NCBI GenBank assembly: GCA_049514435.1
Contig: JBEKVB010000003.1
Location: forward strand, 153,848 to 217,847
Source: Smithellaceae bacterium
Lineage (GTDB): Bacteria; Desulfobacterota; Syntrophia; Syntrophales; Smithellaceae
Direction: 5' to 3'
DNA: 64,000 nucleotides
The notes beneath the pieces were generated by a model. The model saw only the letters and a program-made list of their open reading frames with translations, made no database searches and was not told where the DNA came from. Below, piece by piece: positions 1 to 23,015 of this stretch (its first letter is position 1; each line of letters opens with the position of its first letter). The position numbers and the translations under genes are program-made.

Positions 1-105
1 TTTCCAACTTGTCAGTGTGTGTTGATTCCGCAAATTGTTTTCCGTGCCGATAATACTTAATCCAATATGTCTTTCCTCGCCTCTAAATACATCCCATTTT
101 TTCAC
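1..105 (-). CDS. 5' end of an ORF that runs off the left edge of the window (product unknown; next gene of the mobile-element module)
   Basis: GTG at 103-105 overlaps the TGA of the upstream HTH gene (GTGA coupling). The frame stays open to position 1 (VKKWDVFRGEERHIGLSIIGTENNLRNQHTLTSWK...). No family recognised. Confidence 0.2.
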   Translation of the reverse strand, partial: MKKWDVFRGEERHIGLSIIGTENNLRNQHTLTSWK

Positions 106-9180: not shown

Positions 9181-9212
9181 TACGAGCAAGTTGTATCGTA
9201 GCATATAAAAAC
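9181..9212 (+). repeat. family F1, partial copy (tacgagcaagttgtatcgtagcatataaaaac), abutting the porin stop codon
   Basis: Aligns with the aacgattacaggttgtaatctagcatataattac part of the 17152-17214 copy. Confidence 0.5.
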
Positions 9213-10810: not shown

Positions 10811-12109
10811 TTATATCTTTATACGTGTGGCCATGGTTTTCATGACGTCATTATAGAGAATGACACCCAGGATATTATCCGCACTATCGACCACAGGAAC
10901 CATCCGATAATGATATTTGGCAAACAATTCAGCCAAATCATCGGGATTATCATCTTGTTCCGCCGTGACCACAGGCGCCATCATTATCTCGGCAAGCATT
11001 TTGTTTTGATCAGCAACTATAAGCTCGCGTACATCAACGACTCCCAAGAGTTTGTGACCGTCGTCATCAACAACATAGAGATAGGAAATGTTATGGTATT
11101 CGAGGCCGGAATGCTGAACCCTGTTCAGGGCATCACCGACACGGACATCTTTCTTTATGGCCAGAAACGCTGAGGAGACCAGCCTTCTGGCAGTCGTCTC
11201 TCGCTCCGCTAGAATGGCGCGAACCCGTTCAGCCTGTTCTTTATCCAATAAATTTATAAACTGAGATACCTGATCGTAGGGCAGAACGGAAAAAAGAGCT
11301 GCCAACTGCGGGACTGACATTTCGCTGAAGATCATCCGGGCCCTTTCCTGTCGAATATTAGCGATTATCTGCCGCTGGGCGCGAGGTTCCGCTTCTGCGA
11401 GTGCCTCGGCGGCTTTTTCCGAATCAAGTCCTAAGAGGAGCGCCTGCTGTTCTTCCTCAGGGAGTTCCTCCAGTATATCGGCTAGATCCTCGGAGGGAAG
11501 TTTGGTGAGCTGATTTTTTGTTACCGACAGGGAAACCTTACCCGTTGCAACCACATCTTCGACTGACAAGGGCTGAACAAATTTCCAGGAGATGAGATCT
11601 TCTTTTATCCATTTTAGTTTGCCCAATCCCCAACGTTTCAGGTGACCAGCAAAAGAAATATCGACGTGCACCAGGAAAAGCTTCTCCTTTGACATCAACA
11701 GGTGAATATCGTTGACAACTTCGACGCGCCGATCGTCCATATCCACCACGGTCCTTCCCATCAGATGTTTATCCAGAAGAATCCAGCCAGCCTGGTCAAT
11801 AAAGGGTGGGTAAGTTGCATTATCAGGAGGCCGGACGATAATGGAGTCCTCTTTCAGGTGGCTGACCTTTTCCCACGGGATGAAGGTACTCGGCTTTCCC
11901 CAGCCGTGCTCCATATATATCCCGACAGCTTCCGGATAGGGCTCCGTGAGAGAAAACACCAGATCGGTTAATTTTCCAATCCGGTTTTCAAGTTTCTCTA
12001 CACAGATCGGCCGTTTGATGAGCTCTGACAAATAATAGAATTGGTAGCTGTTCTGCGGTTCGGACTCCTTCATGCCATTCTTTTTCACTATCATTGCGCG
12101 ATCCTCCAT
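10811..12109 (-). CDS. soluble MgtE-like regulatory protein: PRC-barrel-like N-terminus + MgtE N-domain + CBS pair, no MgtE membrane domain
   Basis: LPSEDLADILEELPEEEQQALLLGLDSEKAAEALAEAEP is the MgtE_N signature. C-terminal tandem CBS-like segments. The ATG lies 2 nt after the NRAMP stop (TAAGGATG). Confidence 0.75.
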   Translation of the reverse strand: MEDRAMIVKKNGMKESEPQNSYQFYYLSELIKRPICVEKLENRIGKLTDLVFSLTEPYPEAVGIYMEHGWGKPSTFIPWEKVSHLKEDSIIVRPPDNATYPPFIDQAGWILLDKHLMGRTVVDMDDRRVEVVNDIHLLMSKEKLFLVHVDISFAGHLKRWGLGKLKWIKEDLISWKFVQPLSVEDVVATGKVSLSVTKNQLTKLPSEDLADILEELPEEEQQALLLGLDSEKAAEALAEAEPRAQRQIIANIRQERARMIFSEMSVPQLAALFSVLPYDQVSQFINLLDKEQAERVRAILAERETTARRLVSSAFLAIKKDVRVGDALNRVQHSGLEYHNISYLYVVDDDGHKLLGVVDVRELIVADQNKMLAEIMMAPVVTAEQDDNPDDLAELFAKYHYRMVPVVDSADNILGVILYNDVMKTMATRIKI

Positions 12110-12111: not shown

Positions 12112-13419
12112 TTACTTAAATAGTTCAGGGAAAAGGGTACTGATGCCCAACAGTGTCGAAACTAAAACGACAACTATGACAATCGACCAATTCATAATAT
12201 TTTCCCATCTTGTATTGACATGCTTACCCATGAGGGGTTCGTCATTCAGCAACAAAAGCAAAAACACCAGTGCCGGCGGAAGCAGCGTAACGGCCACGAC
12301 CTGTACGAACATGGTGATTGTTATTAAGGGTGCTCCCGGGATCAGGACCACAGCGCCTGAAGTCAGCAGCATGAAAAGATAGACGAAATAAAACCAGGGG
12401 GCATCTTTGACTTTCTTGTTCAGGGAATGAGCCCAGCCGAAGATCTCCCCCACAGCCCAGGATGTGGACAGCGAAATACAGAGCGCTCCCAGGAACCCTG
12501 CATCGAAAAGACCAATGGCAAAAAGTCTGCGGGCCATTTCCCCTTTCCCATGCGACAGGAAAGGAACAATGGCCTCCGCCGTTTGCCGGGCGTCTTCTAT
12601 TTCGATAGGGGGTTTATGATAATAGAAAATTGCAGCTGTCGTAATTATAATAAATACAGCTACAACACACGTGGATATAGATCCAAGGAAGGTCTCCAGT
12701 TTGCCGAATTTGATGTCATGAATATCGAGTTTTTTATCAACTACAGCGCTTTGCTGGAAAAAGAGCATCCAGGGTGCGATGGTTGTTCCGATATTGGCCA
12801 TAATAATAAAAATCAGATCAGATGTCATGCCGCCCATTTGAAAAGTGTAAAACCCCTTGAACGCTTCGTTCCACGAGGGGGAAGACGGCATATCCATTGC
12901 CCAGATGGCAGCTGGTATATAGACAAGATTAAACAAACAGAAGAATAATGTTATTTTCTCGAAGGTCCAGTATTTACCGGTGATAACGATGGCAAAGAGA
13001 ATTGCCGTTACCACAAGGAAAGTGATCCAGGCGGGTACGCCAAAAAGGCTCATTGCCGCGGTCATCCCTATATATTCTGTAATCAGTGTTAACCAATTTG
13101 TAATCGCAAGGTCTGTGAGCGAAAACCAGCCCCAGAAAGGACCGAAAGCGTCAAAGATGGCTTCCGCATGTCCCCGCTTGGTAACAGCGCCCAAACGAAC
13201 TGTCATTTCCTGGACGTAATAAGCCATAAATATTAATAATATAAACATCCAGAGCAGGGAGAACCCGAATTTGGATCCGGTTACGGCATAGGTGGAAATG
13301 CCGCCGGCATCATTATCAGCCACCATCACGATTATTCCGGGTCCCAGCACAGCCAGAAAAACAATTAGCTGCCGGCGGAAGCGATTCAATAAATGAAGAC
13401 TCTTAGAGATCAAATACAT
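12112..13419 (-). CDS. NRAMP/SLC11-family transporter of the NRAMP-related Mg2+ transporter (NRMT) type
   Basis: 11-12 TM NRAMP architecture. The TM1 motif reads DNDAGG (canonical DPGN). The TM6 motif reads GTTIAPWMLFF (canonical GAT-V-MPHNLYLH), so the metal-binding Met and Asn are replaced. Preceded by an M-box riboswitch. Confidence 0.8.
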   Translation of the reverse strand: MYLISKSLHLLNRFRRQLIVFLAVLGPGIIVMVADNDAGGISTYAVTGSKFGFSLLWMFILLIFMAYYVQEMTVRLGAVTKRGHAEAIFDAFGPFWGWFSLTDLAITNWLTLITEYIGMTAAMSLFGVPAWITFLVVTAILFAIVITGKYWTFEKITLFFCLFNLVYIPAAIWAMDMPSSPSWNEAFKGFYTFQMGGMTSDLIFIIMANIGTTIAPWMLFFQQSAVVDKKLDIHDIKFGKLETFLGSISTCVVAVFIIITTAAIFYYHKPPIEIEDARQTAEAIVPFLSHGKGEMARRLFAIGLFDAGFLGALCISLSTSWAVGEIFGWAHSLNKKVKDAPWFYFVYLFMLLTSGAVVLIPGAPLITITMFVQVVAVTLLPPALVFLLLLLNDEPLMGKHVNTRWENIMNWSIVIVVVLVSTLLGISTLFPELFK

Positions 13420-13734: not shown

Positions 13735-13760
13735 CGATATGTACATAATGCCTCGAATCC

Positions 13761-13917
13761 CCTCTCGTTGATTTTCGGCAGTGCACAACGTAGATCCTTT
13801 GTGACCAGCTACTTCGGGTAAAGCCTTAAGCCGGCAATACCTGGTCTACCCATTGGCGTCTTTCGACATTTCCGGGCAGCAGCCTGTGTTTGTGCAAACG
13901 CCTCATGCTAACGAGGA
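13761..13917 (-). promoter_or_regulatory. M-box (ykoK leader) Mg2+-sensing riboswitch
   Basis: The minus-strand RNA reads CCUCGUUAGCAUGAGGC...GCUGCUGCCCGGAAAUGUCGAAAGACGCCAAUGGGUAGACC...CUUAAGGC...GUAGCUGG...CACUGCCGAAAAUCAACGAGAGG. These blocks match the conserved M-box cores as I recall them from the B. subtilis mgtE leader (GUUAGGUGAGGC, GCUGCUGCCC-AAAAUGUCCAAAGACGCUAAUGGGU, UAAGG, GCAGCUGG, GUGCUAAAGCUCUACGA). Confidence 0.8.
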
Positions 13918-13926
13918 ATGACAGCG

Positions 13927-13955: not shown

Positions 13956-14060
13956 GAAAAAAAATAAAAAAACTATTAATAAATTGTTCGTCTCACTTTT
14001 CATTACAAAACTACGAAAATTAAATTCTTTAATTTGATTTGATAGGGCTCGAGAATTAGT

Positions 14061-14120
14061 GGATGAAATGTAGCATCCCTATCATGGTTGAAATATTATT
14101 GACTTCAGGAAGAAGTTCCT
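14061..14120 (+). repeat. family F1, divergent copy A (..gtagcat..ttgacttcaggaagaagt)
   Basis: Shares the GTAGCAT and TTCAGGAAGA blocks with the other copies. Ends 12-17 nt from the stop of the 14132-17128 gene. Confidence 0.45.
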
Positions 14121-14131
14121 GCTAATTGCAA

Positions 14132-17128
14132 CTACTCCTGCGTGGCAATTCGAGCGACAGCTTCGATAGCAATTGCAGCCACTGCCGAACCATAATCCAA
14201 GTCAATGTTTTCCATCGTGTCGTGTGTATCATGATAGCCAGTCCGGTTAATATCATAATTTTCCATGAATAATACAACAGGCACGCCTATGTCGGAAAAA
14301 ATCTGGCCATCGGTGTTAAAGAGCGAACTGGCCGGATCATCTATAGTCCGAACCTCGCCGTCCAGACATGGATGAAGCGCAATGTTCGGCAGCGTATGAC
14401 CATCTTTACAGCGTTGGCCTTGTCCCTTACCGCGACGCTCCGGAGTTTCATTCCATTCGCTCGTTTTGGCATTCCAAATCATGTTCGCTATGTGTGCCTG
14501 GTAAGCGATGCCAAGCGACTCGCGGCTTTCGCCAGGTGAGATCTGAAACACATTCTGATCTTTGTCCCGGTTATGCGCTATCATGTCCAACACGTACAAA
14601 CCAACGACCTCGACTTGAGACAAGTCCATCGATTGATTCTCTTCCAGCCGCAACCTGAGCGTCTTTTCGACCAACGCCTGAGAAAAATTGCGCGCTCCCA
14701 TGCAATCCGAAGGAAACTCTTCGCCAGTGAGGTGCAACAGCCAAATGTCACGTTCGAGCCGTTCTTCCTTTGCTAGTTGGAGAAAGATCGGCGCAGCCAG
14801 CAAAAGCGTGGTTGTCGCCGAATGGTTGTCGTCTGCTCCGGCAGCGGCTAACCGAGCGCCAGAGCCCCCGCGTGAAGGATCATAGATGTCTTCCATATAA
14901 GCCGTATCATAGTGATCGGCCATGACCACCGCCTGAGTGCGGTCCTTGCCCGGAATCACAACAAGGATATTTCGTTCATAGGCGTGTCCTTCTTGATTGT
15001 TCTTCCACCCGCCAAAAAGTGAAAAGTCGAAATCCGTTTTCCATTGAAACGGTAACTCTTCGCACACGGCTTTACCATCCATGCCTGCCTCGGCTATGGA
15101 CTTGCGATGACGAGTGATAAGATAATCGCCCAAGTGTTCCAGATCGCGATGATGATGGCTTAGCTTGCTTTGTGTGGTCTGATCCTGCACGCAATCGGCA
15201 TTGTCCTTGTTAACAAAGTGGCCATGCGACAGAGTCAGTATATCGTGCCAGAATGCTTCCTCAAAAGTGCGCGTTGCAGTCTTGTTGTAGGTCAAGGGCT
15301 GAGGCAAATCTTTCGCTGCATTCGTCGACTCCAGAATTTTTTCCAATTCCCTCTGAATTCGGTGGCCTTCCTTGGGATCACGGGTCAGTTTCGGCAACGA
15401 GGCCAGCCATTCATCAAGTGTTTCATGCTTGGCGATTCTGAGCAGATGGTGAGCAAAACTGCGCCGTAAGGGCTGCTTGTTCCCGAGTTGCCAGCTATCA
15501 AGAAGCGAAAGAATATTGAGCGGAGTCTGATGAATATAGTGATCGTGAAGCGGGTCAAAGTTCTGCAAGGCCGACAGATATAAGTCACGTCTGAGCAAGC
15601 GTGGCCAAAGCTCGATGGGTTGTGTAAGATCAAGTAAATCCGTTCGATAGGCAGTCAGGTATCCGAGAGGTGCGTTTGGAAGTAACTCCGCCTGTTTCGA
15701 TTTCGGCGACCAGTAAGCTGCCAGTGGCCGATGCCAATAAACCTCGTGCAAACCGACTCGCATCGCCGGAAAGAGAAATCTATATCCAAAAAGTCCACCT
15801 TCAACTAAACTTGTTTCTGCTTTCCGAAGTTCTGTCGGTGTAGCATTCGGGCCATTTAGAACCAGATCGAACTCCTTGGTCCATATTTGACTGTTCCTAG
15901 CCAGGGGTTTGTCGTAGAGGTTGATGGAATCAAGCGCTGTACTGAAAAGCACTTTGGCAACTTTGTCCAAACGAGGATTCAACGCGAGCGCATCATCATA
16001 GCGATGAACTCGGTTCCAACGGTTCGTGCGCCGATAGGTATCCAGCACAAGCTCTTGCTGTACCTGCGATACCTTGAGGCTAGGATGTGGCTCACTCAGC
16101 CAACCTGATTGCGGAATGCGAATTCCCGTCGGCCCGTCATGGCGGACCACCCATCTCTGCGAAGCAATTTGGATAGCCATCGGTAATTCTTGTTGCAGGC
16201 GCAGATACGTTGGCATTCCCCAGGGGACAAGACTCCCCGGAAACGGCAGAAGGTTCAGCTTGCCAAGTAGGTACCGTTCTCGTACCTGATAAGGAAGGCG
16301 GCTGAATGGTCTGAAAGTTAACAAGTATCGGACATCTTCAACCGGGGTGCGATCGTTTATAAGATAAGGTTGAGTCCACGCGGGAAGAGGGTCTTTATCC
16401 CAATAAGGAAACTTTAAATTATGCTCTGAAGGCAAAATACGAAATCCAAGACGGAATAATTGCGCCGCATCTTCGGCGCTTTCTCCATAAACAGAGGACA
16501 ATAATTGCAGAATAAATGCCAGCGATGTTTGCTCGGACAACTCTTGACCAGGAGCTAAATAAAAACTTTTCCAGAAACCACGTTCGGGTCCTTGTTCGCT
16601 GCTGCCAAAAAATGTCCAACGCACTCGGCCCATGTCATCCTGCGTTCGGGAAAGAGCCAAAGGTAAAAGAACGACATAGCGCTCATGAGCAAGATGGCCA
16701 GAGCGAGCGGCCAATTCGGGCGGCCAATAAGGATTTCCCAAGAGATTCATTCCCTTGTGACCGGATATGTGATAGGCTGGCTGGTCTTCACCTAACTTGA
16801 CAAGAAGCTCAATGATCTGTCGGGCAATATTCTCCAACCCTGGTTTAATTTCGTACTCTTCCTCGATTTCAGAGACATGCCAACCGTATGGGTCATCTTC
16901 CGAGAATAACAACAGATCGATGGCACCGTATGGTGTGCGACCCAGTCTCGGTGGCGGCATGAATTCCGAGTATGCGGGTAGGGGATATTGCCCCTTACCC
17001 AAAAACCATGGATAACCATCTAGCAGTTGCAGCCATCCAAGCCGATTTTTGTTGATATTCAAAGATGAAGACTTTGTATCAGATCCCTTCGGATAGATAG
17101 TCATTGCTTCCGCCTCTTGGCTGGACAA
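14132..17128 (-). CDS. large fusion protein: ~700-aa unassigned N-terminal region + C-terminal M28-family metallopeptidase domain (likely real start is ATG at 17104)
   Basis: C-terminal M28 motifs: ADHYDTAY, GADDNHSATTTLL, LTGEEFPSDCMGARNF, GYHDTHDT. AAGAGG lies 9 nt upstream of the ATG at 17104. G+C is higher than the core genome. Confidence 0.7.
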   Translation of the reverse strand: MSSQEAEAMTIYPKGSDTKSSSLNINKNRLGWLQLLDGYPWFLGKGQYPLPAYSEFMPPPRLGRTPYGAIDLLLFSEDDPYGWHVSEIEEEYEIKPGLENIARQIIELLVKLGEDQPAYHISGHKGMNLLGNPYWPPELAARSGHLAHERYVVLLPLALSRTQDDMGRVRWTFFGSSEQGPERGFWKSFYLAPGQELSEQTSLAFILQLLSSVYGESAEDAAQLFRLGFRILPSEHNLKFPYWDKDPLPAWTQPYLINDRTPVEDVRYLLTFRPFSRLPYQVRERYLLGKLNLLPFPGSLVPWGMPTYLRLQQELPMAIQIASQRWVVRHDGPTGIRIPQSGWLSEPHPSLKVSQVQQELVLDTYRRTNRWNRVHRYDDALALNPRLDKVAKVLFSTALDSINLYDKPLARNSQIWTKEFDLVLNGPNATPTELRKAETSLVEGGLFGYRFLFPAMRVGLHEVYWHRPLAAYWSPKSKQAELLPNAPLGYLTAYRTDLLDLTQPIELWPRLLRRDLYLSALQNFDPLHDHYIHQTPLNILSLLDSWQLGNKQPLRRSFAHHLLRIAKHETLDEWLASLPKLTRDPKEGHRIQRELEKILESTNAAKDLPQPLTYNKTATRTFEEAFWHDILTLSHGHFVNKDNADCVQDQTTQSKLSHHHRDLEHLGDYLITRHRKSIAEAGMDGKAVCEELPFQWKTDFDFSLFGGWKNNQEGHAYERNILVVIPGKDRTQAVVMADHYDTAYMEDIYDPSRGGSGARLAAAGADDNHSATTTLLLAAPIFLQLAKEERLERDIWLLHLTGEEFPSDCMGARNFSQALVEKTLRLRLEENQSMDLSQVEVVGLYVLDMIAHNRDKDQNVFQISPGESRESLGIAYQAHIANMIWNAKTSEWNETPERRGKGQGQRCKDGHTLPNIALHPCLDGEVRTIDDPASSLFNTDGQIFSDIGVPVVLFMENYDINRTGYHDTHDTMENIDLDYGSAVAAIAIEAVARIATQE

Positions 17129-17151
17129 ATTTTTATTAAGAAGGATTGTTT

Positions 17152-17214
17152 AACGATTACAGGTTGTAATCTAGCATATAATTACAATTTTGGAAATTGA
17201 GGATTACAGGAAGT
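17152..17214 (+). repeat. family F1, copy B (AACGATTACAGGTTGTAATCTAGCATATAATTACAATTTTGGAAATTGAGGATTACAGGAAGT)
   Basis: Ungapped hand alignment to copy D gives 46/63 identities. Contains the inverted repeat TTGTAAT/ATTACAA flanked by two direct ATTACAGG. Fills most of the 102-bp gap between two genes. Confidence 0.7.
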
Positions 17215-17230
17215 AAGATGCAGCCGTTTT

Positions 17231-18088
17231 TCAGACGCTCTGCTTGAACATCTCATCTGCTATTATACCATCACATATCTTCATTACTGGGCCTGTCATG
17301 GTGGCAAAGAAGCCTTTACTGAAATTAATCTGAATATCTCCGCCCTGCATGTGAACAGTAATATCTGTATCACAAAGCCCAAGTCTGCGAGCAACCGCGG
17401 CAGCAGCAGTGCTGCTGCTTCCTGAAGCGAGAGTATATCCGGCTCCACGTTCCCAAATCTCGATCTGTATATTGTTACGATCCACAACCCTCATGAACTG
17501 TACATTTGTCCGATTAGGAAAACGAGGATCGACCTCCAGCAGAGGACCTAAGCGGCGTGCGTCTTCAGGCGTTGGGGAGTCCGAGAGAACAACGCAGTGC
17601 GGGTTGCCGATAGTGGCCGCGCAGAACGTCAAGATTTGATCGTCAACCTCTATGGTCTCTTTCAAGACTTCACGATGGTCGCCGACAACAGGGATCTTCG
17701 AACTATCAAAACTAACTTCACCCATTTCGACCTTCACACTTCTACCATCATCACTGACCACACATGACACAGGACCTCCAATGGTTTCTATAGTGAAGCA
17801 CCCATTATCAACGAGATGCTCATCCCAAAGGAAACGTGCGAAGATTCGAAGTCCGTTCCCGCTTTTTTCCGCCTCACTACCGTCGGGATTGAGAATCCTA
17901 AGTCCGAATTCACATGACTCACTGTCCAAAGGGCCAATAAGAATCCCGTCCGATCCAACACCATAGTTTCTATGGCAGATCAGGCGGATGGCATCAGGAT
18001 CAAGTTCACCCTTTACATCGGCCGGACGAATCACAATGTAATCGTTACCGATGGCATGATATTTTGTATATTTCATTTTTGATTCCAA
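17231..18088 (-). CDS. diaminopimelate-epimerase (DapF)-fold protein with both catalytic Cys replaced by Ser (start probably ATG at 18076)
   Basis: HAIGNDYIVI, NPDGSEAEKSGNGLRIF and ERGAGYTLASGSSSTAA align to E. coli DapF HGLGNDFMVV, NADGSEVAQCGNGARCF and ERGAGETQACGSGACAA. Confidence 0.75.
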   Translation of the reverse strand: MESKMKYTKYHAIGNDYIVIRPADVKGELDPDAIRLICHRNYGVGSDGILIGPLDSESCEFGLRILNPDGSEAEKSGNGLRIFARFLWDEHLVDNGCFTIETIGGPVSCVVSDDGRSVKVEMGEVSFDSSKIPVVGDHREVLKETIEVDDQILTFCAATIGNPHCVVLSDSPTPEDARRLGPLLEVDPRFPNRTNVQFMRVVDRNNIQIEIWERGAGYTLASGSSSTAAAAVARRLGLCDTDITVHMQGGDIQINFSKGFFATMTGPVMKICDGIIADEMFKQSV

Positions 18089-18120
18089 ATCCGTTTACAT
18101 GGATCAGTTTTTATATTTTT

Positions 18121-18190
18121 AACGCTGAGGATTTCAGGTTGAAACCTACCATAAAATGCCCAAATATAAAATTGAGACTTACAGGAAGAA
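18121..18190 (+). repeat. family F1, copy C (AACGCTGAGGATTTCAGGTTGAAACCTACCATAAAATGCCCAAATATAAAATTGAGACTTACAGGAAGA)
   Basis: Shares both ends (AACG..., AAATTGAG-CTTACAGGAAG) with copies B and D. Confidence 0.55.
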
Positions 18191-18241
18191 GTGCTTGTTG
18201 AAAACACAACTGTTCAGAAGTGGGCAGTTATAATAAGCGTG

Positions 18242-18266
18242 GATTATGAATTGAAAGAGGGTAACG
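18242..18266 (+). repeat. family F2, copy 2 (GATTATGAATTGAAAGAGGGTAACG)
   Basis: 22/25 identical to 9111-9135. Confidence 0.65.
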
Positions 18267-18372
18267 GCTATGTCGCCTGCGGTTGAAACCAAAAATTATC
18301 TTAATAAATTGTCTTTAAACATAGCGTTTATTATCATTTTGAATAGGTGATGTCAATAATTTTAGCTTATTT

Positions 18373-18388
18373 AGGGACAGCTGTCCCT
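18373..18388. terminator. perfect 16-bp palindrome AGGGACAGCTGTCCCT just downstream of the PAS-like gene (hairpin or operator)
   Basis: Read directly. Lies 29 nt after the stop at 18417. On the minus strand a TTGACA-17-TAATAA promoter-like element follows. No strong U-run. Confidence 0.3.
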
Positions 18389-18416
18389 GTTTACACCATG
18401 ATTGATAAACTGAGGC

Positions 18417-18815
18417 CTATTTTGAGATGGAAGATGGAAACAACTCCGGCTTTGCGTATTGAGTAATATCTATATTGAAATGTATATAGATGTCTTTTTC
18501 GCCAGAAACCGGAATCCAGTATGTATCAAGCACCTGCTTGAATGGTTCAAAATAGGCCACTGAGCGCTTGGTGATCCCTTCTGCCAATGCCGCATTTGCC
18601 AGGCATGTTTTATGGGATTCATTCAAGCCTGTCAATTCATAGCATTTCATTCCGGGTTGGATGCCCAGGTCGCGTGCCAGCTTGTTGACTGCGATGATGG
18701 AACGATCCTTCTTAAGCAGCATAACCACGAAAGGGAAAGCATCCCACATCATATGAAACGCTTTTATTAGATCCAGATTGGCATCGGGGTCTGATTTATT
18801 TGATGTGTTCTGCAT
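18417..18815 (-). CDS. small PAS-like domain protein (132 aa)
   Basis: ORF track. FPFVVMLLKKDRSIIAVNKLARDLGIQPG...DTYWIPVSGEKDIYIHF resembles a stand-alone PAS fold. Family assignment is tentative. Confidence 0.45.
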   Translation of the reverse strand: MQNTSNKSDPDANLDLIKAFHMMWDAFPFVVMLLKKDRSIIAVNKLARDLGIQPGMKCYELTGLNESHKTCLANAALAEGITKRSVAYFEPFKQVLDTYWIPVSGEKDIYIHFNIDITQYAKPELFPSSISK

Positions 18816-19071
18816 CGATTTTCCCCTTGATAGTTCACGTTCATGGTCTAGCGTATAAGAAACGCGGCCTTGAATGTCAAGGAAATCTTGACCTCAAAAT
18901 GTAATGTACCGTGCCGATGTATATCGTCGAGAGTGAATTGTGTTTATTACGGATTGAAGTCCTGCATACTCGACAAGGATGAGGATCTGTTTCTTTCAGG
19001 AAGTATGATTTACAATCCATCTTTACACCTGCTGTCAAGATAACTTCGTCCTACAGTACATTGGGCGGCGA

Positions 19072-19932
19072 CTAAGCGTCGATCCCTTGTTCTTGCAAGG
19101 CAGCTCTCAACTCATTTACGAGTCGATGCTCCACGATCCAGTCGACCAGTGCATCGAGGTGCATAAATTTCACCAGTCTCCCTTGCTTTTCACGCTGTGC
19201 CTGAAACCAGGCATCCATGACCGGCTCGACGTATGGATTCGCATGTCCATTGGTTACAAGTACACCTTCGATATAGTCTGGAACTACAGGCAGTTGAAAC
19301 GTAGTTAGTGGAACCAAGAAGATCTCCTCCAACTCGTCTTTACTCTCTCGCCATTTGTTTTTGTCTATGTCTCCACACTTGACTTGATAGTGACGCAGGA
19401 CGACAACCCCATCGATATGAAGTAGTGCAGCAATGTCCTTGCCGTACTCAATAGGCCCATGACGAACCTGCGCGTAAAGGGGTAGCCCAGCTTGCAGCAC
19501 ACGCAGCAATACCGTCCTAAGTACCGATTCCTTTGTTATGCCCTCGAACGCACGGTGCATCCATGTCCGAACGGGCCCGAGCATGGCAGTAAGAGCGCTC
19601 TTTCCGATCTCCGGACGCATAGCCTCGGTGACGTCCGGACCTATGATGGGGATCTTAGCAAGCATATCAAGGGCAAGAGCAAGTCGATTTCGGGTTAGCT
19701 CGCTGGCCGGATCGCTTTCGAAACCTCTGAAGGCACCTGCTGCTTCAGAGATGAACGTCAGCGCTAGACGATCATATTCGGTCTCTACGGACATACGGAT
19801 CTCGACTTGATATTCGCGACGCGCATCTTCGGGGCTGAATGTTTGTGGATCCGAGACGAGTTTTGACAAAACGTTCACGAGCACACGAAACCGTGCCACT
19901 TCGCCGCTGTGCCACCCCGACTCCGTACCCAC
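19072..19932 (-). CDS. hypothetical protein with a C-terminal Mrr/PD-(D/E)xK-like nuclease motif. In frame with, and probably the continuation of, the 20050-20841 ORF.
   Basis: YGKDIAALLHIDGVVVLRHYQVKCGDI resembles the G-x-D...D...Q/E-x-K core of Mrr-type restriction endonuclease domains. GTG start with no convincing RBS. Confidence 0.5.
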   Translation of the reverse strand: MGTESGWHSGEVARFRVLVNVLSKLVSDPQTFSPEDARREYQVEIRMSVETEYDRLALTFISEAAGAFRGFESDPASELTRNRLALALDMLAKIPIIGPDVTEAMRPEIGKSALTAMLGPVRTWMHRAFEGITKESVLRTVLLRVLQAGLPLYAQVRHGPIEYGKDIAALLHIDGVVVLRHYQVKCGDIDKNKWRESKDELEEIFLVPLTTFQLPVVPDYIEGVLVTNGHANPYVEPVMDAWFQAQREKQGRLVKFMHLDALVDWIVEHRLVNELRAALQEQGIDA

Positions 19933-20049
19933 TAGGGATTCTGCTGCCTTAGCAAGAAGCTCTTTTGCCTTCGCTGGAGTTCGGATCGATTCGGCCAGTC
20001 GAGCTCTGGCACGAAAGTATTTTGCCCACAGTTGCTGATTGATACCCGA

Positions 20050-20841
20050 CTAATGTCCGCCCTTCTCTTCTAAGGCAACTGGAAGGGTATCAGCAGCGAA
20101 AGCGTCTGCTGCTTTGTCGAACCAAGCTACTGCCTTGGCTTTCTCCACATGGGCCAGCGTGACTGCCAGCCAGCCCTTCAGGCCAGGCGTAGTGAAATCG
20201 ATAGCATGCTCCAGCACAATTTTGTGCGCCCCTTGCCAGTCGCCATCGAAAGTAAAAAGGTGGAAAGCGGAAGGAATGTTTAAGATCAATTCCTGCCCAC
20301 GCTGCTCGACGTCCATCGGAACTTCATAAGCAGGGAATTGCACATCCCATTTTCCGTCAAGGTCAGTGACAATGACGATTCCCCGCACGAGATAATTGCT
20401 CGCATGTTCAGAGTTTCCAAAGTGCTTCAATAAGCGCTGGGCGAGCTCGGAGTTTATCTCGCGAATCCGCGTTTGAATTGCCTCGCAGTCGACCTTGAAT
20501 AGCCACAAAGAACGAGCTAATAATTGTTTTAGTTTATAGAGCGCAGCAAGAGATACTGGGGAGTCAGGAGATTGTTCTGAAATAACCTGCTCGAAATCGA
20601 GCAACCCGGCATGCTGTGCCTTGAGCATATGATCAGGGTTTCCCCAAGCAGCATCTATGGCACATGACATTGCTACGCCCGCGCTAAAGTGTTGGCCGTC
20701 TCTACGCCAGAGTTCCGCAGCTTGGTATAACTTCTCGTAGGCGACTTCATTACCCGGAGGCGCCAGTGTCCGACTGACTTCTAGGAATAGATCACGTGCA
20801 GCACTCATAAAACTCCAGATGTTTGCTTCGCTGCCCAACAA
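20050..20841 (-). CDS. hypothetical all-helical protein (263 aa), terminated by a TAG that is in frame with the downstream ORF
   Basis: ORF track. 39 stop-free, start-free codons (SGINQQLWAKYFRARARLAESIRTPAKAKELLAKAAESL) link its TAG (20050-20052) to the GTG at 19932. Confidence 0.55.
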   Translation of the reverse strand: MLGSEANIWSFMSAARDLFLEVSRTLAPPGNEVAYEKLYQAAELWRRDGQHFSAGVAMSCAIDAAWGNPDHMLKAQHAGLLDFEQVISEQSPDSPVSLAALYKLKQLLARSLWLFKVDCEAIQTRIREINSELAQRLLKHFGNSEHASNYLVRGIVIVTDLDGKWDVQFPAYEVPMDVEQRGQELILNIPSAFHLFTFDGDWQGAHKIVLEHAIDFTTPGLKGWLAVTLAHVEKAKAVAWFDKAADAFAADTLPVALEEKGGH

Positions 20842-20916
20842 TGTTTATATATCTTGTATAATAAACTAAACACCGTGAATTTTGCAGTATAATACTCTTC
20901 AAACGGATCATATAAC

Positions 20917-20979
20917 AACAATTACGATTTGTAATGTAGCATAAAACAATAAAATGGAGAAATAAGAATTACAGGAAGT
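20917..20979 (+). repeat. family F1, copy D (AACAATTACGATTTGTAATGTAGCATAAAACAATAAAATGGAGAAATAAGAATTACAGGAAGT)
   Basis: 46/63 identical to copy B over the same length. A further partial relative (tttcaggaagtatgatttacaatcc) is at about 18990-19015. Confidence 0.7.
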
Positions 20980-21047
20980 TATCAGTACTGGCTATTCTTC
21001 TACCATATGCAACTTCCAGCATGGGAATATATTTATTTTGGGAATTG

Positions 21048-22087
21048 TTCACCTGACAAAGCATGGTTCCGAATTCCCTTTTAGTAAGTTTTTCAACATT
21101 AATCTCTCGCCTTCCATTCCCTTGACCGCTTCTTCCGCTCTTTCACCATCAGTCACTTTCCGGTTATCCCACCGGAAAGAAAACTCATTGCAATATCTTC
21201 CTAAATGCTTCTTAGAAATATGATGGAAAGTGCTATTGACACCACGCTTTACTAATGCGAAAAACGATTCCGCTGTGTTAGTAGAAATATCACCATTAAC
21301 ATATTGACCTAATCCGTGATTGACTACTCCGTGTCCACCTTTAAAATCTTTGCCTATTCCTATATAACTTCTAAATTCATCAGTTATTATTTTCGATTCG
21401 CTGTCCACTGCTTCTCTAATCGCTGACTTCAATGTCTTGGCTGTCACGTTCTTAACCGGCTTGGTAATTATTCTTCCGCCTCGTTCCACCATTGCCATTA
21501 CTGGAGCCTTCTTAGTTCCTCTGCCTCTTTTTCCACTCCCTTTTCTTGGCTTTCCGCCTATGTAAGTTTCGTCAACTTCAACAGTGCCTTTTAAAGCGGC
21601 AGCCAAAGCACCTTCTTTCATGGCGAGTCTTATTCTGTGAGCAAGATGCCACGCGGATTTATAAGAACCAAGACCTAAGTTTCTTTGAAGCTGAAGGGCA
21701 GAAATTCCCTTTTTGTGAGAACTCATGGAATGAAAAGCCTGAACCCATTGCCTTAAAGTAATATGAGAATCTTCCATTACCGTGCCGATCATAACAGTAA
21801 ATTGTTTACGGCAAGCATTACATTGAATCAAGCCGTCTCTGACCTTTTCAGATTTGCTATTAAGTCTTGTCACATTATCACTTCCGCAATGAGCGCATTT
21901 TACACCTTCCGGCCAGCGGATATGCTCAAGGATTGCCCTTGCTTCATCTTCAGTTAATCGGCAAATGTCTATTGCCGACATCTCCGCAAATCTCTCAAAT
22001 TTAGGTGGTATATATTTCATGGTTTTAACTCCTTTCTCTCTTTTGTTACCCATAATATATACCCGTTTATCTGCTTTGTCAAGTGGA
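21048..22087 (-). mobile_element. IS1595-family (ISXO2-like) insertion sequence, ~1.04 kb
   Basis: Terminal inverted repeats TTCACCTGACAAAGCA (21048-21063) and TGCTTTGTCAAGTGGA (22072-22087), 14/16 complementary. One transposase gene. No clear target-site duplication seen. Confidence 0.65.
21049..22020 (-). CDS. IS1595-family DDE transposase with N-terminal zinc ribbon
   Basis: CAHCGSDNV...CNACRKQFTV zinc ribbon. HKKGISALQLQRNLGLGSYKSAWHLAHRIR HTH. VEVDETYIGGK DDE region. AAGGAG RBS before the MKYIPPKF start. Confidence 0.8.
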   Translation of the reverse strand: MKYIPPKFERFAEMSAIDICRLTEDEARAILEHIRWPEGVKCAHCGSDNVTRLNSKSEKVRDGLIQCNACRKQFTVMIGTVMEDSHITLRQWVQAFHSMSSHKKGISALQLQRNLGLGSYKSAWHLAHRIRLAMKEGALAAALKGTVEVDETYIGGKPRKGSGKRGRGTKKAPVMAMVERGGRIITKPVKNVTAKTLKSAIREAVDSESKIITDEFRSYIGIGKDFKGGHGVVNHGLGQYVNGDISTNTAESFFALVKRGVNSTFHHISKKHLGRYCNEFSFRWDNRKVTDGERAEEAVKGMEGERLMLKNLLKGNSEPCFVR

Positions 22088-22292
22088 TAGTTAAAATATA
22101 TTACCTAATAATATCGACCTGTTACTACAAGAGATAGGAGTAGAACATAATAATGCTTATCACTGAAATAGATAACCAGATTAAACCCTCCATAATAAAT
22201 CGAGAGACAGTCTGGGGAGGGAAAAACACTAGTAAAGTAAGAAAAAAAATGCTAATTACAGCGCCAATAAAACCTATTCCACTTAAAAACAA

Positions 22293-23015
22293 ATGATACT
22301 TTTTGAGCGTTGGAAGAAAACCGCAATTCACAATAAGGCTTTGGTATTGACCGGATTCCTTGTAGCCTTCGGAACTCTGTTCTATGCCGGTGCGGCTGTT
22401 TTCCAATACTGTTTGATGAAAGACACCGCAAAAGCTGCTGCTGAACAAACAAAAATTTTGATAGGAGAAATGCAGAACCAAACTAAAGCTATGCAAGACG
22501 CTGCTAATGCTACTATGAATACTGTTAAAGTAGCTGAACGGAATATCAAATCCACACAAGAGCAATTTAGATTGGATCAAAGGGCTTGGATTAGTATAAC
22601 AAAGGCAAACTTCAGGGAACCGCTTGATGCGAAGAAAAAAGCCGTCATAGATTTTGTAGTCAAAAACAGTGGCAAAACCCCAGCTCTGCATCTTCGGGGG
22701 AGTTATGAAACATGGTATCAACATTTGGGAACAGCTTCTCTGAAAGTCGGGAAAACTATTAGCGGTGAAATCGCTTACGGTCCCGGAGATGAAAAAGTAA
22801 CCTTTATCGGATGGGACGAACCTCTTCTTCAAGCTCAAATTGACCTTATGCAATCGGGGCAGGAAATCCTTTTTATTGAAATCAAATTTATATATTTTGA
22901 CATATATAACAGCAAAATACCGCATCACACTTGCACATGTTTTTTCTATGACTCCAAAGCTGCTATCAATGGGGCTTTGTCGCTCTGTGAAACTGGGTGT
23001 AGTTATATGGATTAG
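22293..23015 (+). CDS. hypothetical membrane-anchored protein (240 aa): one N-terminal TM helix + coiled segment + beta-rich domain
   Basis: Protein-like sequence (AVIDFVVKNSGKTPALHL...). Strong purine-first / A,T-third codon periodicity in this frame. Fully overlapped by an antisense ORF (see findings). Confidence 0.5.
   Translation: MILFERWKKTAIHNKALVLTGFLVAFGTLFYAGAAVFQYCLMKDTAKAAAEQTKILIGEMQNQTKAMQDAANATMNTVKVAERNIKSTQEQFRLDQRAWISITKANFREPLDAKKKAVIDFVVKNSGKTPALHLRGSYETWYQHLGTASLKVGKTISGEIAYGPGDEKVTFIGWDEPLLQAQIDLMQSGQEILFIEIKFIYFDIYNSKIPHHTCTCFFYDSKAAINGALSLCETGCSYMD

What the first reader, a model, noticed from the sequence alone, without database searches (positions are those of the whole stretch)
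14061..20979. A 63-70-bp repeat family (F1) recurs just after successive cargo genes, giving a cassette-like array with no recognisable recombinase
**Copies**
- A 14061-14120 (divergent), B 17152-17214, C 18121-18190, D 20917-20979.
- Partial copies at about 18990-19015 and 9181-9212.

**Similarity and structure**
- B and D are the same length and align ungapped at 46/63 positions by hand.
- Conserved blocks are AAC-ATTAC, TTGTAAT-TAGCATA and ATTACAGGAAGT.
- Copy B has an inverted repeat TTGTAAT/ATTACAA flanked by two direct ATTACAGG.

**Position**
- On the coding (minus) strand the ACTTCCTGTAA end starts about 10-75 nt after the stop codon of the M28 fusion (A), the DapF-like gene (B), the 286-aa ORF (partial copy) and the IS (D).
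- The repeat therefore fills the short gaps between otherwise unrelated genes.
- I did not see the motif in the 23.5-64 kb housekeeping part.

**Possible readings**
- Recombination sites bounding gene cassettes, conceptually like attC sites or Xer-dependent dif modules.
- A shared terminator/promoter-operator module.
- MITE remnants.
- The first would be a new cassette system.
Basis: seen in the sequence. Interest (0 to 1): 0.65.

Follow-up and report, generated by a model that had tools for sequence, protein, structure and literature searches.

The report
Portable promoter repeat heading shuffled genes
The repeat is real, but it is a roughly 65-base promoter-like module attached to the start of the next gene, found in tens of copies per genome in uncultured Smithellaceae, and its edges are where gene order breaks between related strains.

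Summary
The repeat family is real. A profile search finds five full-length copies in the window, all on the minus strand: B, C, D, then E and A. A 21-nt fragment sits near 9.2 kb. There are none in the other ~52 kb.

It is not local. The same element occurs 145 times in 629 kb sampled from about 25 Smithella/Smithellaceae/Syntrophaceae MAGs, clustered in co-oriented arrays.

It belongs to gene starts, not gene ends:
- The downstream gene is co-oriented in 83 of 94 cases.
- 23 copies lie between divergent genes.
- Orthologues of dapF and the M28 gene keep "their" upstream copy while the upstream neighbour changes.

There is no conserved hairpin, so it is not like attC, dif, REP or a terminator. 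A sigma-70 matrix gives one sharp peak at a fixed position: TGnTAnnTT extended -10, 17-nt spacer, weak -35. Two copies of a TTWC-N5-GTAA dyad flank that promoter.

The cassette idea survives as a pattern. Homology blocks between genomes run from the invariant CTTCCTGTAA of one copy to that of the next, and 31% of homology end points fall in 1.7% of bases. No recombinase was seen.

Best reading: a portable promoter module whose conserved blocks are recombination hot spots.

The parts
17149..17216 (-). F1 copy B (main type), 48 nt upstream of the ATG (17103) of the 990-aa M28-domain gene. C1 of CTTCCTGTAA is at 17213.
   Evidence: nhmmer E = 1e-17. An orthologous copy is kept upstream of the M28 gene in L073 although the upstream neighbour differs.
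17204..17216 (-). Dyad O1 of copy B, TTAC-TTCCT-GTAA, containing the invariant 10-mer CTTCCTGTAA. This is the right-hand break point of the 98% identical dapF block shared with L078.
17168..17196 (-). Predicted promoter of copy B: -35 TTTCCA (17196-17191), 17-nt spacer, TG (17176-17175), -10 TAGATT (17173-17168). The inferred transcription start is near 17161.
   Evidence: Sigma-70 matrix score 8.4, the best in the whole intergenic region. The family-wide peak is at the same position. No transcription start has been mapped.
17157..17169 (-). Dyad O2 of copy B, TTAC-AACCT-GTAA, overlapping the end of the -10 and the inferred start site.
18125..18191 (-). F1 copy C, 50 nt upstream of the dapF ATG (18076). 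C1 is at 18188. Predicted -10 is TAGGTT, ending at 18143. It is followed by a 45-nt extension module (here called D2; 18126-18080) shared with 8 other copies.
   Evidence: nhmmer E = 7e-14. An orthologous copy lies upstream of dapF in L068. The left break point of the block shared with L078 is at 18128, the 3' end of the core. D2 alignment.
20917..20980 (-). F1 copy D, upstream of the 252/262-aa hypothetical gene (start 20808 or 20838) and 60 nt downstream of the IS1595 end. C1 is at 20978. Predicted -35 TTCTCC, TG, and -10 TACATT ending at 20933.
   Evidence: nhmmer E = 2e-13; sigma-70 matrix score 8.1
18940..19005 (-). F1 copy E (divergent, of the second subfamily here called sub2), upstream of the 132-aa gene (ATG 18815). 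Its own -10 is degenerate. A canonical TTGACA-17-TATACG promoter lies downstream, with the -10 ending near 18852.
   Evidence: nhmmer E = 2e-6. blastn to sub2 copies in L042 and L067. Matrix scores.
14050..14116 (-). F1 copy A (decayed, sub2-like), starting 19 nt after the M28 stop and about 115 nt upstream of the TTGACA-17-TAAAGA promoter of the M-box/Nramp operon.
   Evidence: nhmmer E = 7e-5. The orthologous position in L073 carries a cleaner copy.
9188..9208 (-). Fragment F: only the TATGCTA..TACAA block, directly after the OprB stop. Not significant on its own.
   Evidence: nhmmer E = 1.8; the repeat finder family D2

Best explanation
**What it is**
F1 is a lineage-specific family of dispersed promoter-region modules in Smithellaceae and relatives. 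The core is about 63-70 nt, and some subfamilies carry 30-50 nt extensions.

**Anatomy, read on the coding strand**
- An invariant CTTCCTGTAA, which is the right part of a dyad TTWC-TTCCT-GTAA (O1).
- A weak -35 (TTTTCA) 7 nt further on.
- A 17-nt A/T-rich spacer ending in TGC.
- A -10 of the form TAnnTT.
- A second dyad, TTWC-AANNN-GTAA (O2), overlapping the -10 and the start site.

**Proposed mechanism**
- The housekeeping RNA polymerase holoenzyme starts transcription about 7 nt after the -10, from an extended -10 promoter, and transcribes the gene immediately downstream.
- The two dyads are binding sites for an unidentified dimeric regulator.

**Why it forms arrays**
- Each module is attached to one gene or short operon. 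Regions made of single-gene units therefore look like arrays of 'gene - repeat - gene - repeat'.
- The conserved blocks, above all the 10-mer at the 5' edge, are the only sequence shared by otherwise unrelated units. They act as preferred cross-over points in rearrangements, so [F1 + gene] units are reshuffled between strains.

**Shown versus inferred**
- Shown: family membership; link to gene starts; lack of structure; position-specific promoter-like signal; break-point enrichment.
- Inferred: promoter activity; regulator binding; the recombination being homology- or microhomology-driven.
For: **A real, lineage-wide family**
- 63 loci hold exact matches to the pattern. About 58 are in Smithella/Smithellaceae/Syntrophaceae/Syntrophales MAGs.
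- A profile finds 109-145 copies in 0.45-0.63 Mb.
- The window's organism is a Smithellaceae MAG.

**Tied to gene starts**
- 106 of 109 copies are intergenic.
- The downstream gene is co-oriented in 83 cases against 11 opposite.
- 23 copies lie between divergent genes, against 7 between convergent genes.
- Divergent element pairs occur.
- dapF in L068 (82% aa identity) keeps copy C, and M28 in L073 (92% aa identity) keeps copy B plus the 5'UTR. In both, the upstream neighbours differ.
- More distant M28 homologues (L074, L076) have no F1. They have a canonical TTGACA-17-TATACT promoter in the same slot, and L074 also shares the 5'UTR end with the window.

**Promoter signal**
- TG is present at positions 38-39 in 93 of 104 copies; T41 in 85, A42 in 98 and T46 in 104.
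- A sigma-70 matrix scanned over -80..+170 of 100 aligned copies gives a single peak. 50% of copies score above threshold with the -10 ending at position 46, against 0.8% per position in shuffles.
- In several copies (L045, L033, L010, L015, L048) the Shine-Dalgarno sequence and start codon follow the core within 13-45 nt, leaving no room for another promoter.

**Unrelated cargo**
- The 71 downstream proteins hit 89 Pfam families. The most frequent, PilZ, occurs only 4 times.

**Dyads**
- O1 and O2 share TTWC-N5-GTAA.
- That pattern occurs 6 times in the window against 1.55 expected, always in F1 or in the second repeat family.

**Break points**
- The window and L078 share only a 925-nt block at 98% identity. 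It runs from the 3' end of core C to the 10-mer of B.
- Over all loci, 40 of 129 homology end points fall in 1.7% of the bases, and 15 lie exactly at the start of the 10-mer.

**Precedent**
- Families of homologous promoters upstream of unrelated genes ('putative mobile promoters') have been described, with the largest family (93 copies) in Desulfurivibrio (PMC3488235).
Against: - No transcription start data exist, so promoter activity is inferred from sequence only.
- The -35 is weak. Only half of the copies pass the matrix threshold.
- In one subtype (core beginning CTTCCTGTAAGTGAGC, 'GTGAGC') and some sub2 copies the -10 lacks the A at -11, and a canonical TTGACA promoter lies about 50-100 nt downstream. 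What is conserved across all subfamilies is therefore O1, ATGC and O2 rather than a complete promoter.
- TATGCT (positions 36-41) with a CA start at 48-49 is an alternative -10 reading that cannot be excluded.
- Sigma-70 does not explain the strict invariance of CTTCCTGTAA and of CAA (48-50). The regulator is hypothetical.
- Cross-overs within a 10-13-nt identity are too short for ordinary RecA recombination (established knowledge). The sharp 5' break point is therefore not fully explained by passive homology.
- The loci were chosen because they contain the element, so densities are biased upward.
Confidence: 0.6

Rival explanations
1. F1 is the recombination site of a dedicated cassette system. 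A site-specific recombinase, encoded elsewhere in the genome, would cut and rejoin within the invariant CTTCCTGTAA / TTWC-N5-GTAA dyad, excising and inserting [F1 + gene] units. The promoter would be carried along so that each cassette is self-expressing.
For: - Shared blocks between genomes start exactly at C1 of the 10-mer (15 end points) or end at its last base.
- A strain with 98% identical dapF DNA has unrelated flanks for 7-10 kb on both sides, with break points at the element edges.
- Copies are clustered in co-oriented arrays of single genes: window, L078, L066, L005 and L067.
- The 10-13-nt identity is too short for ordinary RecA-dependent exchange (established knowledge).
- O1 and O2 are dyads, the usual form of a recombinase core site.
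Against: - The only transposase or recombinase domain among the 17 ORFs scanned with Pfam (833-24245) is the IS1595 DDE transposase; 26-64 kb was not scanned. L078 carries a 67-aa resolvase fragment.
- The dyad arms are only 4 bp.
- Break points also occur at other conserved blocks (+31..44, +45..72), as expected for homology-guided exchange rather than a single cross-over point.
- The units include an essential housekeeping gene, dapF.
- Divergent pairs exist.
- No filled/empty sites or circular junctions were seen.
- The arrangement is stable in at least 24 assemblies of the same population.
Confidence: 0.12
2. F1 is mainly an operator or upstream regulatory module of one large regulon. O1 and O2 would bind a global regulator, and the promoter proper would be supplied by neighbouring sequence. 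The similarity of whole elements would then reflect constraint from the protein footprint rather than copying.
For: - O1, ATGC and O2 are the blocks conserved in all subfamilies, whereas the -35 and spacer differ.
- Sub2 and GTGAGC-type copies have canonical TTGACA promoters 50-100 nt downstream.
- An O2-like dyad also occurs in a different repeat family.
Against: - Subfamilies share long stretches of spacer sequence with no obvious function. Copies reach 80-100% identity over 65 nt within one genome, which indicates common descent.
- The distance from the core to the downstream promoter or start codon varies from about 10 to more than 200 nt, which is unusual for an operator.
- In copies such as L045 and L010 there is no room for a separate promoter.
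Confidence: 0.15
3. F1 is a selfish or neutral dispersed repeat (MITE, REP or CREE-like) that accumulates in intergenic DNA. The promoter-like signal would be incidental.
For: - Tens of copies per genome, with subfamilies and mosaic flanks made of recurring upstream modules (labelled U1, U5, U6 in the full report), downstream extensions (D1, D2) and a second repeat family.
- Association with synteny breaks, as reported for Neisseria Correia elements (my own knowledge, not checked here).
Against: - No terminal inverted repeats and no conserved palindrome.
- No insertion polymorphism.
- Strong orientation bias toward the downstream gene, 83:11.
- Orthologous copies are retained with their gene at 80-92% identity.
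- Invariant blocks are conserved far above the rest of the element.
Confidence: 0.08
4. F1 is a transcription terminator or 3'-end element of the upstream gene. This is the positional reading implied by the first reader.
For: In the window the element begins 17-70 nt after four stop codons. About 18% of copies with a co-oriented upstream gene are preceded by a terminator-like hairpin.
Against: - No stable or conserved hairpin in the element: z-scores -1.1 to +0.6.
- 30 copies have an oppositely oriented upstream gene.
- Orthology follows the downstream gene.
- The hairpins lie outside the element and are barely above control, 18% against 9%.
Confidence: 0.02

Closest known systems
Putative mobile promoters (PMPs; Matus-Garcia, Nijveen & van Passel 2012, PMC3488235)
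   Same: - Homologous 50-100-nt sequences lie within about 150 nt upstream of unrelated genes, and the neighbouring coding sequences are not homologous.
- Families can be large (93 copies in Desulfurivibrio alkaliphilus) and shared between genera.
- F1 meets these criteria in several MAGs.
   Different: - PMPs are defined purely by similarity; no anatomy or mechanism is given.
- F1 has a defined architecture: an extended -10 between two dyads. It forms clustered, co-oriented arrays, and its edges coincide with synteny break points.
- The window's own copies are only 71-73% identical, below the 80% PMP cut-off.
Integron attC sites and cassette arrays
   Same: - Co-oriented arrays of unrelated single genes are separated by a 60-70-nt repeat.
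- Gene content varies between strains.
- Junctions lie in a short conserved core.
   Different: - attC folds into an imperfect hairpin, belongs to the gene upstream and sits next to intI/attI/Pc; the cassettes are mostly promoterless.
- F1 has no hairpin, belongs to the gene downstream and carries a promoter-like signal.
- F1 also occurs in divergent pairs, on many contigs, and no integrase was seen among the ORFs scanned.
Neisseria Correia elements (CREE) and intergenic mosaic elements (NIME). From my own knowledge, not checked in the literature tools.
   Same: Abundant intergenic repeats that can supply promoters, form mosaics with other small repeats, and mark sites of genome rearrangement.
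   Different: - Correia elements have 26-nt terminal inverted repeats, a TA target duplication and an IHF site, and insert in either orientation.
- F1 has none of these and is strongly oriented with the downstream gene.
Extended -10 (TGn) sigma-70 promoters flanked by repressor operators, as in phage or lac/gal-type dual-operator control. Established knowledge.
   Same: TGnTAnnnT with a weak -35. One dyad lies upstream of the -35 and one overlaps the -10 and the start site.
   Different: - No regulator is known and there is no experimental start site.
- The centre-to-centre spacing of about 47 bp is roughly 4.5 helical turns by my own arithmetic, assuming about 10.5 bp per turn.
- The whole unit is copied tens of times in front of unrelated genes.
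- No copy was found in viral contigs.

Membership tests
Integron attC (59-base element) | Imperfect inverted repeats (R''/L'' ... L'/R') that fold the single strand into a hairpin | tested here: not met
   The inverted repeat of copy B is not conserved. There is no covariation between positions 25-32 and 45-52 in 104 copies. RNA folds of six copies give z = -1.1 to +0.6.
Integron attC (59-base element) | The site belongs to the cassette of the upstream gene, with the junction at the 3' core GTTRRRY | tested here: not met
   Homology blocks between genomes are [F1 + downstream gene]. 15 end points lie at the 5' edge. GTTAAAC occurs at the 3' end only in one subfamily, with no inverse core at the 5' end (read).
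Integron attC (59-base element) | The array is adjacent to an intI integrase with attI and Pc | tested here: inconclusive
   No integrase domain in the 17 ORFs scanned with Pfam between 833 and 24245. 26-64 kb and the rest of the genome were not scanned.
Xer/dif-type site | About 28 bp: two 11-bp recombinase arms in inverted orientation around a 6-bp spacer | tested here: not met
   The only conserved dyads have 4-bp arms around 5 bp, TTWC-N5-GTAA. There is no longer symmetry in the consensus.
Putative mobile promoter family (PMC3488235) | Lies within about 150 nt upstream of the start codon of a transcription unit | tested here: met
   B lies 48 nt, C 50 nt, D 78-108 nt and E 124 nt from the start codon. 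In other loci the median is about 90 nt.
Putative mobile promoter family (PMC3488235) | At least 50 nt aligned at 80% identity or more between copies of one genome | tested here: inconclusive
   Window copies reach at most 72%. Other MAGs meet the criterion: 44 pairs in MAG MFD02138.bin.2.50 (accession prefix CAVQCU), and 10, 9 and 8 pairs in MAGs with prefixes CAVQAL, CAWETF and JBEKRZ.
Putative mobile promoter family (PMC3488235) | Upstream and downstream coding sequences are not homologous between copies | tested here: met
   71 downstream proteins hit 89 Pfam families with none dominant, and their mean pairwise identity is about 15%.
MITE / Correia-like element | Terminal inverted repeats, target-site duplication, and presence/absence polymorphism at otherwise identical sites | tested here: not met
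   The 5' end (CTTCCTGTAAT) and the 3' end (..GTAATCGTT) are direct, not inverted. No filled/empty pairs exist among 70 loci.
REP/BIME | 20-40-nt palindromic units, typically at 3' ends of genes or within operons, in either orientation | tested here: not met
   There is no conserved palindrome. Orientation follows the downstream gene, 83:11.
Sigma-70 extended -10 promoter | TGn directly upstream of a TAnnnT hexamer at a fixed position, with a -35-like hexamer 16-18 nt upstream | tested here: met
   TG in 93 of 104 copies, T41 in 85, A42 in 98 and T46 in 104. The matrix scan gives a single peak, 50% against 0.8%. B scores 8.4 and D 8.1.
Sigma-70 extended -10 promoter | Transcription starts 6-8 nt downstream of the -10 | not testable with these tools
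   No transcript 5'-end data are available.
Intrinsic terminator | G+C-rich stem-loop followed by a run of T | tested here: not met
   None lies inside the element. Hairpins upstream of the element occur in 18% of copies against 9% in the control.
Known RNA family (Rfam) | Match to a curated covariance model | tested here: not met
   There is no hit on any copy at the gathering threshold or at E up to 5.

The most novel reading that the evidence does not exclude
[F1 + gene] units are true mobile cassettes of a so far undescribed system. A recombinase would act on the 13-bp dyad that contains the invariant CTTCCTGTAA, moving self-expressing, promoter-led genes (including housekeeping genes such as dapF) between positions and genomes. 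In effect this would be an 'inverted integron', in which the recombination site sits in front of the gene and brings its own promoter.
Probability: 0.1. Interest if true: 0.85.

Novelty: new member of a known kind. Interest (0 to 1): 0.45.

Why it matters
- **Origin of promoters for new genes.** The result shows how an uncultured syntroph lineage equips unrelated, partly horizontally acquired genes with one standard promoter module. It gives a concrete, anatomically defined example of 'promoter propagation'.
- **A testable handle on regulation.** The module offers a predicted promoter and two candidate operator sites for an organism that cannot yet be grown.
- **Genome plasticity.** The module's edges are strong hot spots for gene-order change between near-identical strains. 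This is relevant to genome plasticity and to metagenome assembly and binning. It also leaves open a small chance of a new cassette mechanism.

Tried and rejected
- **Hairpin, attC or terminator.** Covariation counts and folds show no structure.
- **Known RNA.** Rfam gives nothing on the copies at the gathering threshold or at relaxed E-values.
- **Sigma-54 (TGGCAC-N5-TTGCW).** There is no GG 12 nt upstream of the conserved GC (read).
- **ECF-type -35/-10 spacing from TGTAAT.** Nothing is conserved at the expected distance.
- **Six-codon mini-ORF ATG(37)..TAA(55), e.g. MLGYKQ*.** It is in frame in most copies but was rejected. There is no Shine-Dalgarno sequence. The variable positions (43-44) are first and second codon positions, while the third (45) is invariant. 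The G of the ATG is A in 10 copies.
- **Terminator as a general upstream part.** Found in only 18% of copies against 9% in the control.
- **MITE-like insertion.** No filled/empty sites.
- **Phage origin.** 0 matches in 2.9 million viral contigs.
- **tblastn of the window's proteins against the 63 loci.** No hits, so synteny had to be tested through homologue look-ups.
- **Chance hits.** L012 (Lachnospiraceae) and L019 (Nitrosopumilaceae) match the pattern inside coding sequence and show none of the family's flanking conserved blocks, so I treated them as chance and left them out of the profile. L034 (a 'Methanobacterium' bin) and L037 (a 'Cloacimonas' bin) carry genuine copies on short contigs. 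L037 is identical to L046 from Smithella over the 151 nt compared, so this is most likely mis-binning.
- **Literature.** Searches for a described Smithella promoter or repeat found nothing relevant.

Full report

Yes. The repeat finder returns one family of three 63-nt copies at 17152-17214, 18127-18189 and 20917-20979, with 71-73% identity. The block TTACAGGAAGT, allowing one mismatch, occurs four times in 64 kb against 0.86 expected; no shuffle reached four.

A profile built from copies in other genomes detects five full-length copies in the window, all on the minus strand:

| Copy | Coordinates | E-value |
|---|---|---|
| B | 17216-17149 | 1e-17 |
| C | 18191-18125 | 7e-14 |
| D | 20980-20917 | 2e-13 |
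| E | 19005-18940 | 2e-6 |
| A | 14115-14052 | 7e-5 |

It matches copies of a second subfamily (sub2) in L042 and L067 by blastn.
- The 9.2-kb piece is a 21-nt fragment that is not significant alone.
- Nothing else in the window scores below E = 1.

All genes from 5.6 to 22 kb are on the minus strand, so from here on I read the element on that strand.

**2. The element is lineage-wide, not local.**

The window occurs in peat metagenome assemblies. Its DapF cluster is named 'Smithellaceae bacterium'.

A scan of one genome per species with CTTCCTGTAA-N24-26-TATGNTANNTTNCAA gave 63 loci.
- About 58 are in Smithella, Smithellaceae, Syntrophaceae, Syntrophales or Thermodesulfobacteriota MAGs from bogs, fens and Danish soils.
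- There are up to 17 hits per MAG, on different contigs.
- Positions the pattern left free are also strongly conserved.

nhmmer then found 109 copies in 450 kb, and 145 copies in 629 kb after more loci were added.

Copies are clustered and co-oriented:
- Window: 5 copies in 7 kb and none in the other 52 kb.
- L078: 5 copies in 9 kb.
- L066: 5 copies. L005 and L067: 4 copies each.

Pattern hits per long contig suggest tens of copies per genome, not hundreds.

**3. It goes with gene starts, not gene ends.**

I used crude ORF calls for the context.
- 106 of 109 copies are intergenic.
- The gene downstream is co-oriented in 83 cases and opposite in 11.
- The gene upstream is co-oriented in 63 and opposite in 30.
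- 23 copies sit between divergent genes, where nothing ends. Only 7 sit between convergent genes.
- Divergent pairs of elements occur between divergent genes: L013 1941-1996(-)/2241-2311(+) and L052 20-89(-)/641-709(+).

Orthology gives the same answer.
- dapF in L068 (82% aa identity) has an orthologous copy at the same place upstream, although its upstream neighbour is a metallo-beta-lactamase-fold gene instead of the 132-aa ORF.
- The M28 gene in L073 (92% aa identity) keeps copy B and the 5'UTR, while its upstream neighbours are a 130-aa ORF and an IS200-type transposase instead of dapF. It also keeps a cleaner version of copy A after its stop.
- More distant M28 homologues (L074 at 82%, L076 at 72%) have no F1. 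They have a canonical TTGACA-17-TATACT promoter in front, and L074 also shares the end of the 5'UTR with the window. F1 therefore occupies the promoter slot.

The 71 different proteins encoded downstream of copies hit 89 Pfam families. None is common; PilZ, with four, is the most frequent.

**4. Anatomy.**

Conservation in 42 copies that were not selected by the search pattern, and base counts in all 104 copies, show these blocks. Positions are numbered from the C of CTTCCTG.

| Positions | Feature |
|---|---|
| -2..10 | TTWC-TTCCT-GTAA; the last ten bases are practically invariant |
| 18-23 | T-rich hexamer, mostly TTTTCA; in some copies TTGACA, TTGACG or TTGGCG |
| 38-39 | TG in 93 of 104 copies |
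| 40 | C in 90 copies |
| 41-46 | T41 (85), A42 (98), two variable positions, T45 (103), T46 (104) |
| 48-50 | CAA |
| 54-58 | GTAAT |

- Positions 45-57 read TTWC-AANNN-GTAA. This is the same dyad as at the 5' end, so I call the two dyads O1 and O2.
- Six copies folded as RNA are no more stable than shuffles, with z between -1.1 and +0.6.
- Rfam finds nothing on the copies.

**5. Promoter reading.**

The string TG-n-TAnnTT at 38-46, with a hexamer 17 nt upstream, is the signature of an extended -10 sigma-70 promoter (established knowledge).

I scanned a simple sigma-70 matrix over -80..+170 of 100 aligned copies. It gave exactly one position where many copies score well: the -10 ending at position 46. 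There, 50% of copies exceed the threshold, against 0.8% per position in shuffled controls.

In the window this is the top-scoring site of the intergenic region for three copies:
- B scores 8.4.
- D scores 8.1.
- C scores 4.9.
- A is weak.
- E has lost it, but has TTGACA-17-TATACG further downstream.

The organism uses canonical promoters elsewhere, for example TTGACA-17-TAAAGA in front of the M-box and TTGACA-17-TATATT in front of the IS1595 transposase.

In several copies the ribosome-binding site and start codon follow within 13-45 nt of the core (L045, L033, L010, L015, L048). In L010 the upstream gene is divergent. In those cases the promoter must lie inside the element.

Caveats:
- No 5'-end data exist.
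- TATGCT at 36-41 with a CA start at 48-49 is an alternative reading.
- GTGAGC-type copies and some sub2 copies rely on a canonical promoter 50-100 nt downstream.
- Some subfamilies carry an extension with a second promoter-like site. The 45-nt D2 module after copy C and eight others reads TTGGAA-16-TATAAA.

The two dyads, one just upstream of the -35 and one over the -10 and start site, look like operators of a dimeric regulator. This is inference only. TTWC-N5-GTAAT occurs six times in the window against 1.55 expected, always in F1 or in a second repeat family.

**6. The cassette question.**

It does.

*Strain comparison.* L078 and L079 are two independent contigs whose DapF is 97% identical to the window's.
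- They share with the window a single 925-nt block at 98% nucleotide identity, window 18128 to 17204, and nothing else within 7-10 kb on either side.
- The left break is at the 3' end of core C. L078 has a terminator-like hairpin there and no core.
- The right break is immediately after CTTCCTGTAA of copy B. Beyond it, L078 continues with a different subtype and a PilZ gene.
- The window arrangement is the same in the four places shown and the 20 similar places not shown, out of 24 contigs read. Together with the two independent L078/L079 contigs, this argues against an assembly artefact.

*All loci.* I ran all-against-all blastn on 629 kb and kept alignments of at least 250 nt at 80% identity or more.
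- This gives 129 internal homology end points.
- 40 of them (31%) fall within the 1.7% of bases occupied by F1.
- 15 blocks with homology running downstream start at -3..+2.
- 5 blocks with homology lying upstream end at +3..+12.
- Smaller clusters lie at +31..44 and +61..72.

Blocks shared between genomes therefore run from the 10-mer of one element, through its gene, to the 10-mer (or the end) of the next element.

The pattern is cassette-like, but the unit is [F1 + downstream gene], the reverse of an integron cassette.

I found no filled/empty sites. Among the 17 ORFs scanned with Pfam, the only transposase or recombinase domain is the IS1595 DDE transposase. There were no copies in viral contigs.

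Break points occur at each conserved block rather than at one point. I therefore favour recombination guided by the short conserved blocks, filtered by selection for intact promoter-gene units, over a dedicated enzyme. The sharpness of the 5' junction within only 10-13 identical bases is still not fully explained, and I keep the dedicated-system reading at about 0.1.

**7. Mosaic flanks.**

Other short modules recur next to the core:
- **U1:** a terminator-like hairpin module, AAACAATTCTGCCGATTCAGAAATCGGAATTTTATTTCTT.
- **U5:** GGACGAAGTTATCTTGACAGCAGGT..., shared by window copy E and L062, which carry different core subtypes.
- **U6:** CAACAAGCACTT, in window C, L018 and L057.
- **D1:** the 3' extension CGTTAAACAATCCTTCTTTATTAAAA.
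- **D2:** the 45-nt extension after copy C and eight others.
- **A second repeat family** at window 9060-9135.

L056 and L057 have an almost identical 5' leader (the 48 nt downstream of the core that I could compare) but cores that differ much more, which suggests exchange of the core alone. Terminator-like hairpins upstream are not a general feature, at 18% against 9% in the control.

**8. Comparison with known systems.**

- *Putative mobile promoters.* The closest described concept is the 'putative mobile promoter': homologous 50-100-nt promoter regions upstream of unrelated genes, with the largest family (93 copies) in Desulfurivibrio alkaliphilus (PMC3488235). F1 meets the location and non-homologous-neighbour criteria. 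It meets the 80% identity criterion in several MAGs but not among the window's own copies, which reach at most 72%.
- *Other families.* F1 fails the defining tests for attC, dif, MITE/Correia, REP and terminators (see the membership table).
- *What is specific to F1.* A defined extended -10 between two dyads, clustering in co-oriented arrays, and break-point enrichment at its edges.

**9. Verdict.**

- It is a new family of a known kind of element.
- It is of moderate interest, with a small chance of hiding a new cassette mechanism.

Noticed in passing
window 13753-13922 (-), with genes 12112-13419, 10811-12109 and 9222-10571 (-): An M-box (magnesium) riboswitch: Rfam RF00380, 132 bits. It has its own TTGACA-17-TAAAGA promoter and a terminator hairpin at 13735-13714. 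Downstream are an Nramp-family transporter, a soluble PRC-barrel/MgtE_N/CBS protein and an OprB porin. This is probably a Mg-regulated uptake operon.
   Followed up: partly
window 23338-23427 (+): A tRNA-Sec-like gene with anticodon loop CUUCAAA, a long variable arm and a CCA end. It scores 35.4 bits, below Rfam's gathering score of 47, and ARAGORN does not call it because of a weak D-arm and weak acceptor pairs. It is 81% conserved in L045. It lies at the border of the variable, F1-rich region.
   Followed up: partly
window 21040-22092, and 23063-23086: An IS1595-family element: transposase at 21049-22053, with inverted repeats at 21040-21063 and 22072-22092. A third, better copy of the inverted repeat (92%) lies at 23063-23086. 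It encloses a 240-aa ORF on the plus strand (22293-23015), which the metagenome gene calls prefer over the overlapping 308-aa minus-strand ORF.
   Followed up: partly
window 8747-8785 and 23087-23125: A 39-nt direct repeat (82-85% identity), about 14.3 kb apart, that brackets exactly the region holding all F1 copies and the IS. Read on the minus strand it contains TTGACA/TTGGCA. It could be another repeated promoter or an island border.
   Followed up: no
window 9060-9135 (also 18242-18266); L053 170-245, L047 132-192, L015 1975-2037: A second dispersed repeat family, ..GTTACTCTCTTTCAATTGGTAATCTTCAGTTTT..TTTGTTTGTAG.., at 81-88% identity to copies in other MAGs. It contains an O2-like dyad (TTTC-AATTG-GTAA). 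In L047 and L015 it sits just upstream of the hairpin module (U1 in the full report) that often precedes F1.
   Followed up: partly
window 18080-18126 (-); L006, L008, L021, L027, L050, L055, L065, L066: A 45-nt extension module (D2 in the full report; ..AGCGTTTGGAATATTAGCACCGATCCATATAAACAATGTT) follows the F1 core in nine copies in front of unrelated genes. It contains a second promoter-like site, TTGGAA-16-TATAAA. In strain L078 dapF has this module without the core.
   Followed up: partly
window 14132-17104 (-): The 990-aa protein with a C-terminal M28 peptidase domain has full-length homologues at 60-68% identity in MAGs labelled Acidobacteriota, Bacteroidota, Chloroflexota, Lentisphaeria and others. 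This suggests frequent horizontal transfer.
   Followed up: partly
window 8270-9221: An unusually long (950-nt) gene-free stretch with a local 30-nt repeat (8805-8834 and 8937-8966, 83% identity) and several promoter-like sites. Its content is unexplained.
   Followed up: no
L034 (a 'Methanobacterium' bin) and L037 (a 'Cloacimonas sp. SDB' bin): Short contigs assigned to unrelated taxa carry genuine full-length F1 copies. L037 is identical to L046 from a Smithella MAG over the 151 nt compared. This is most likely mis-binning, and F1 could serve as a lineage marker.
   Followed up: no
window 3313-4785 (-) and 5672-8269 (-): A T5orf172 (GIY-YIG-like) domain fused to TPR repeats, and an 865-aa protein with a P-loop motif but no Pfam match. 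Both sit next to the variable region and may be defence-related.
   Followed up: no
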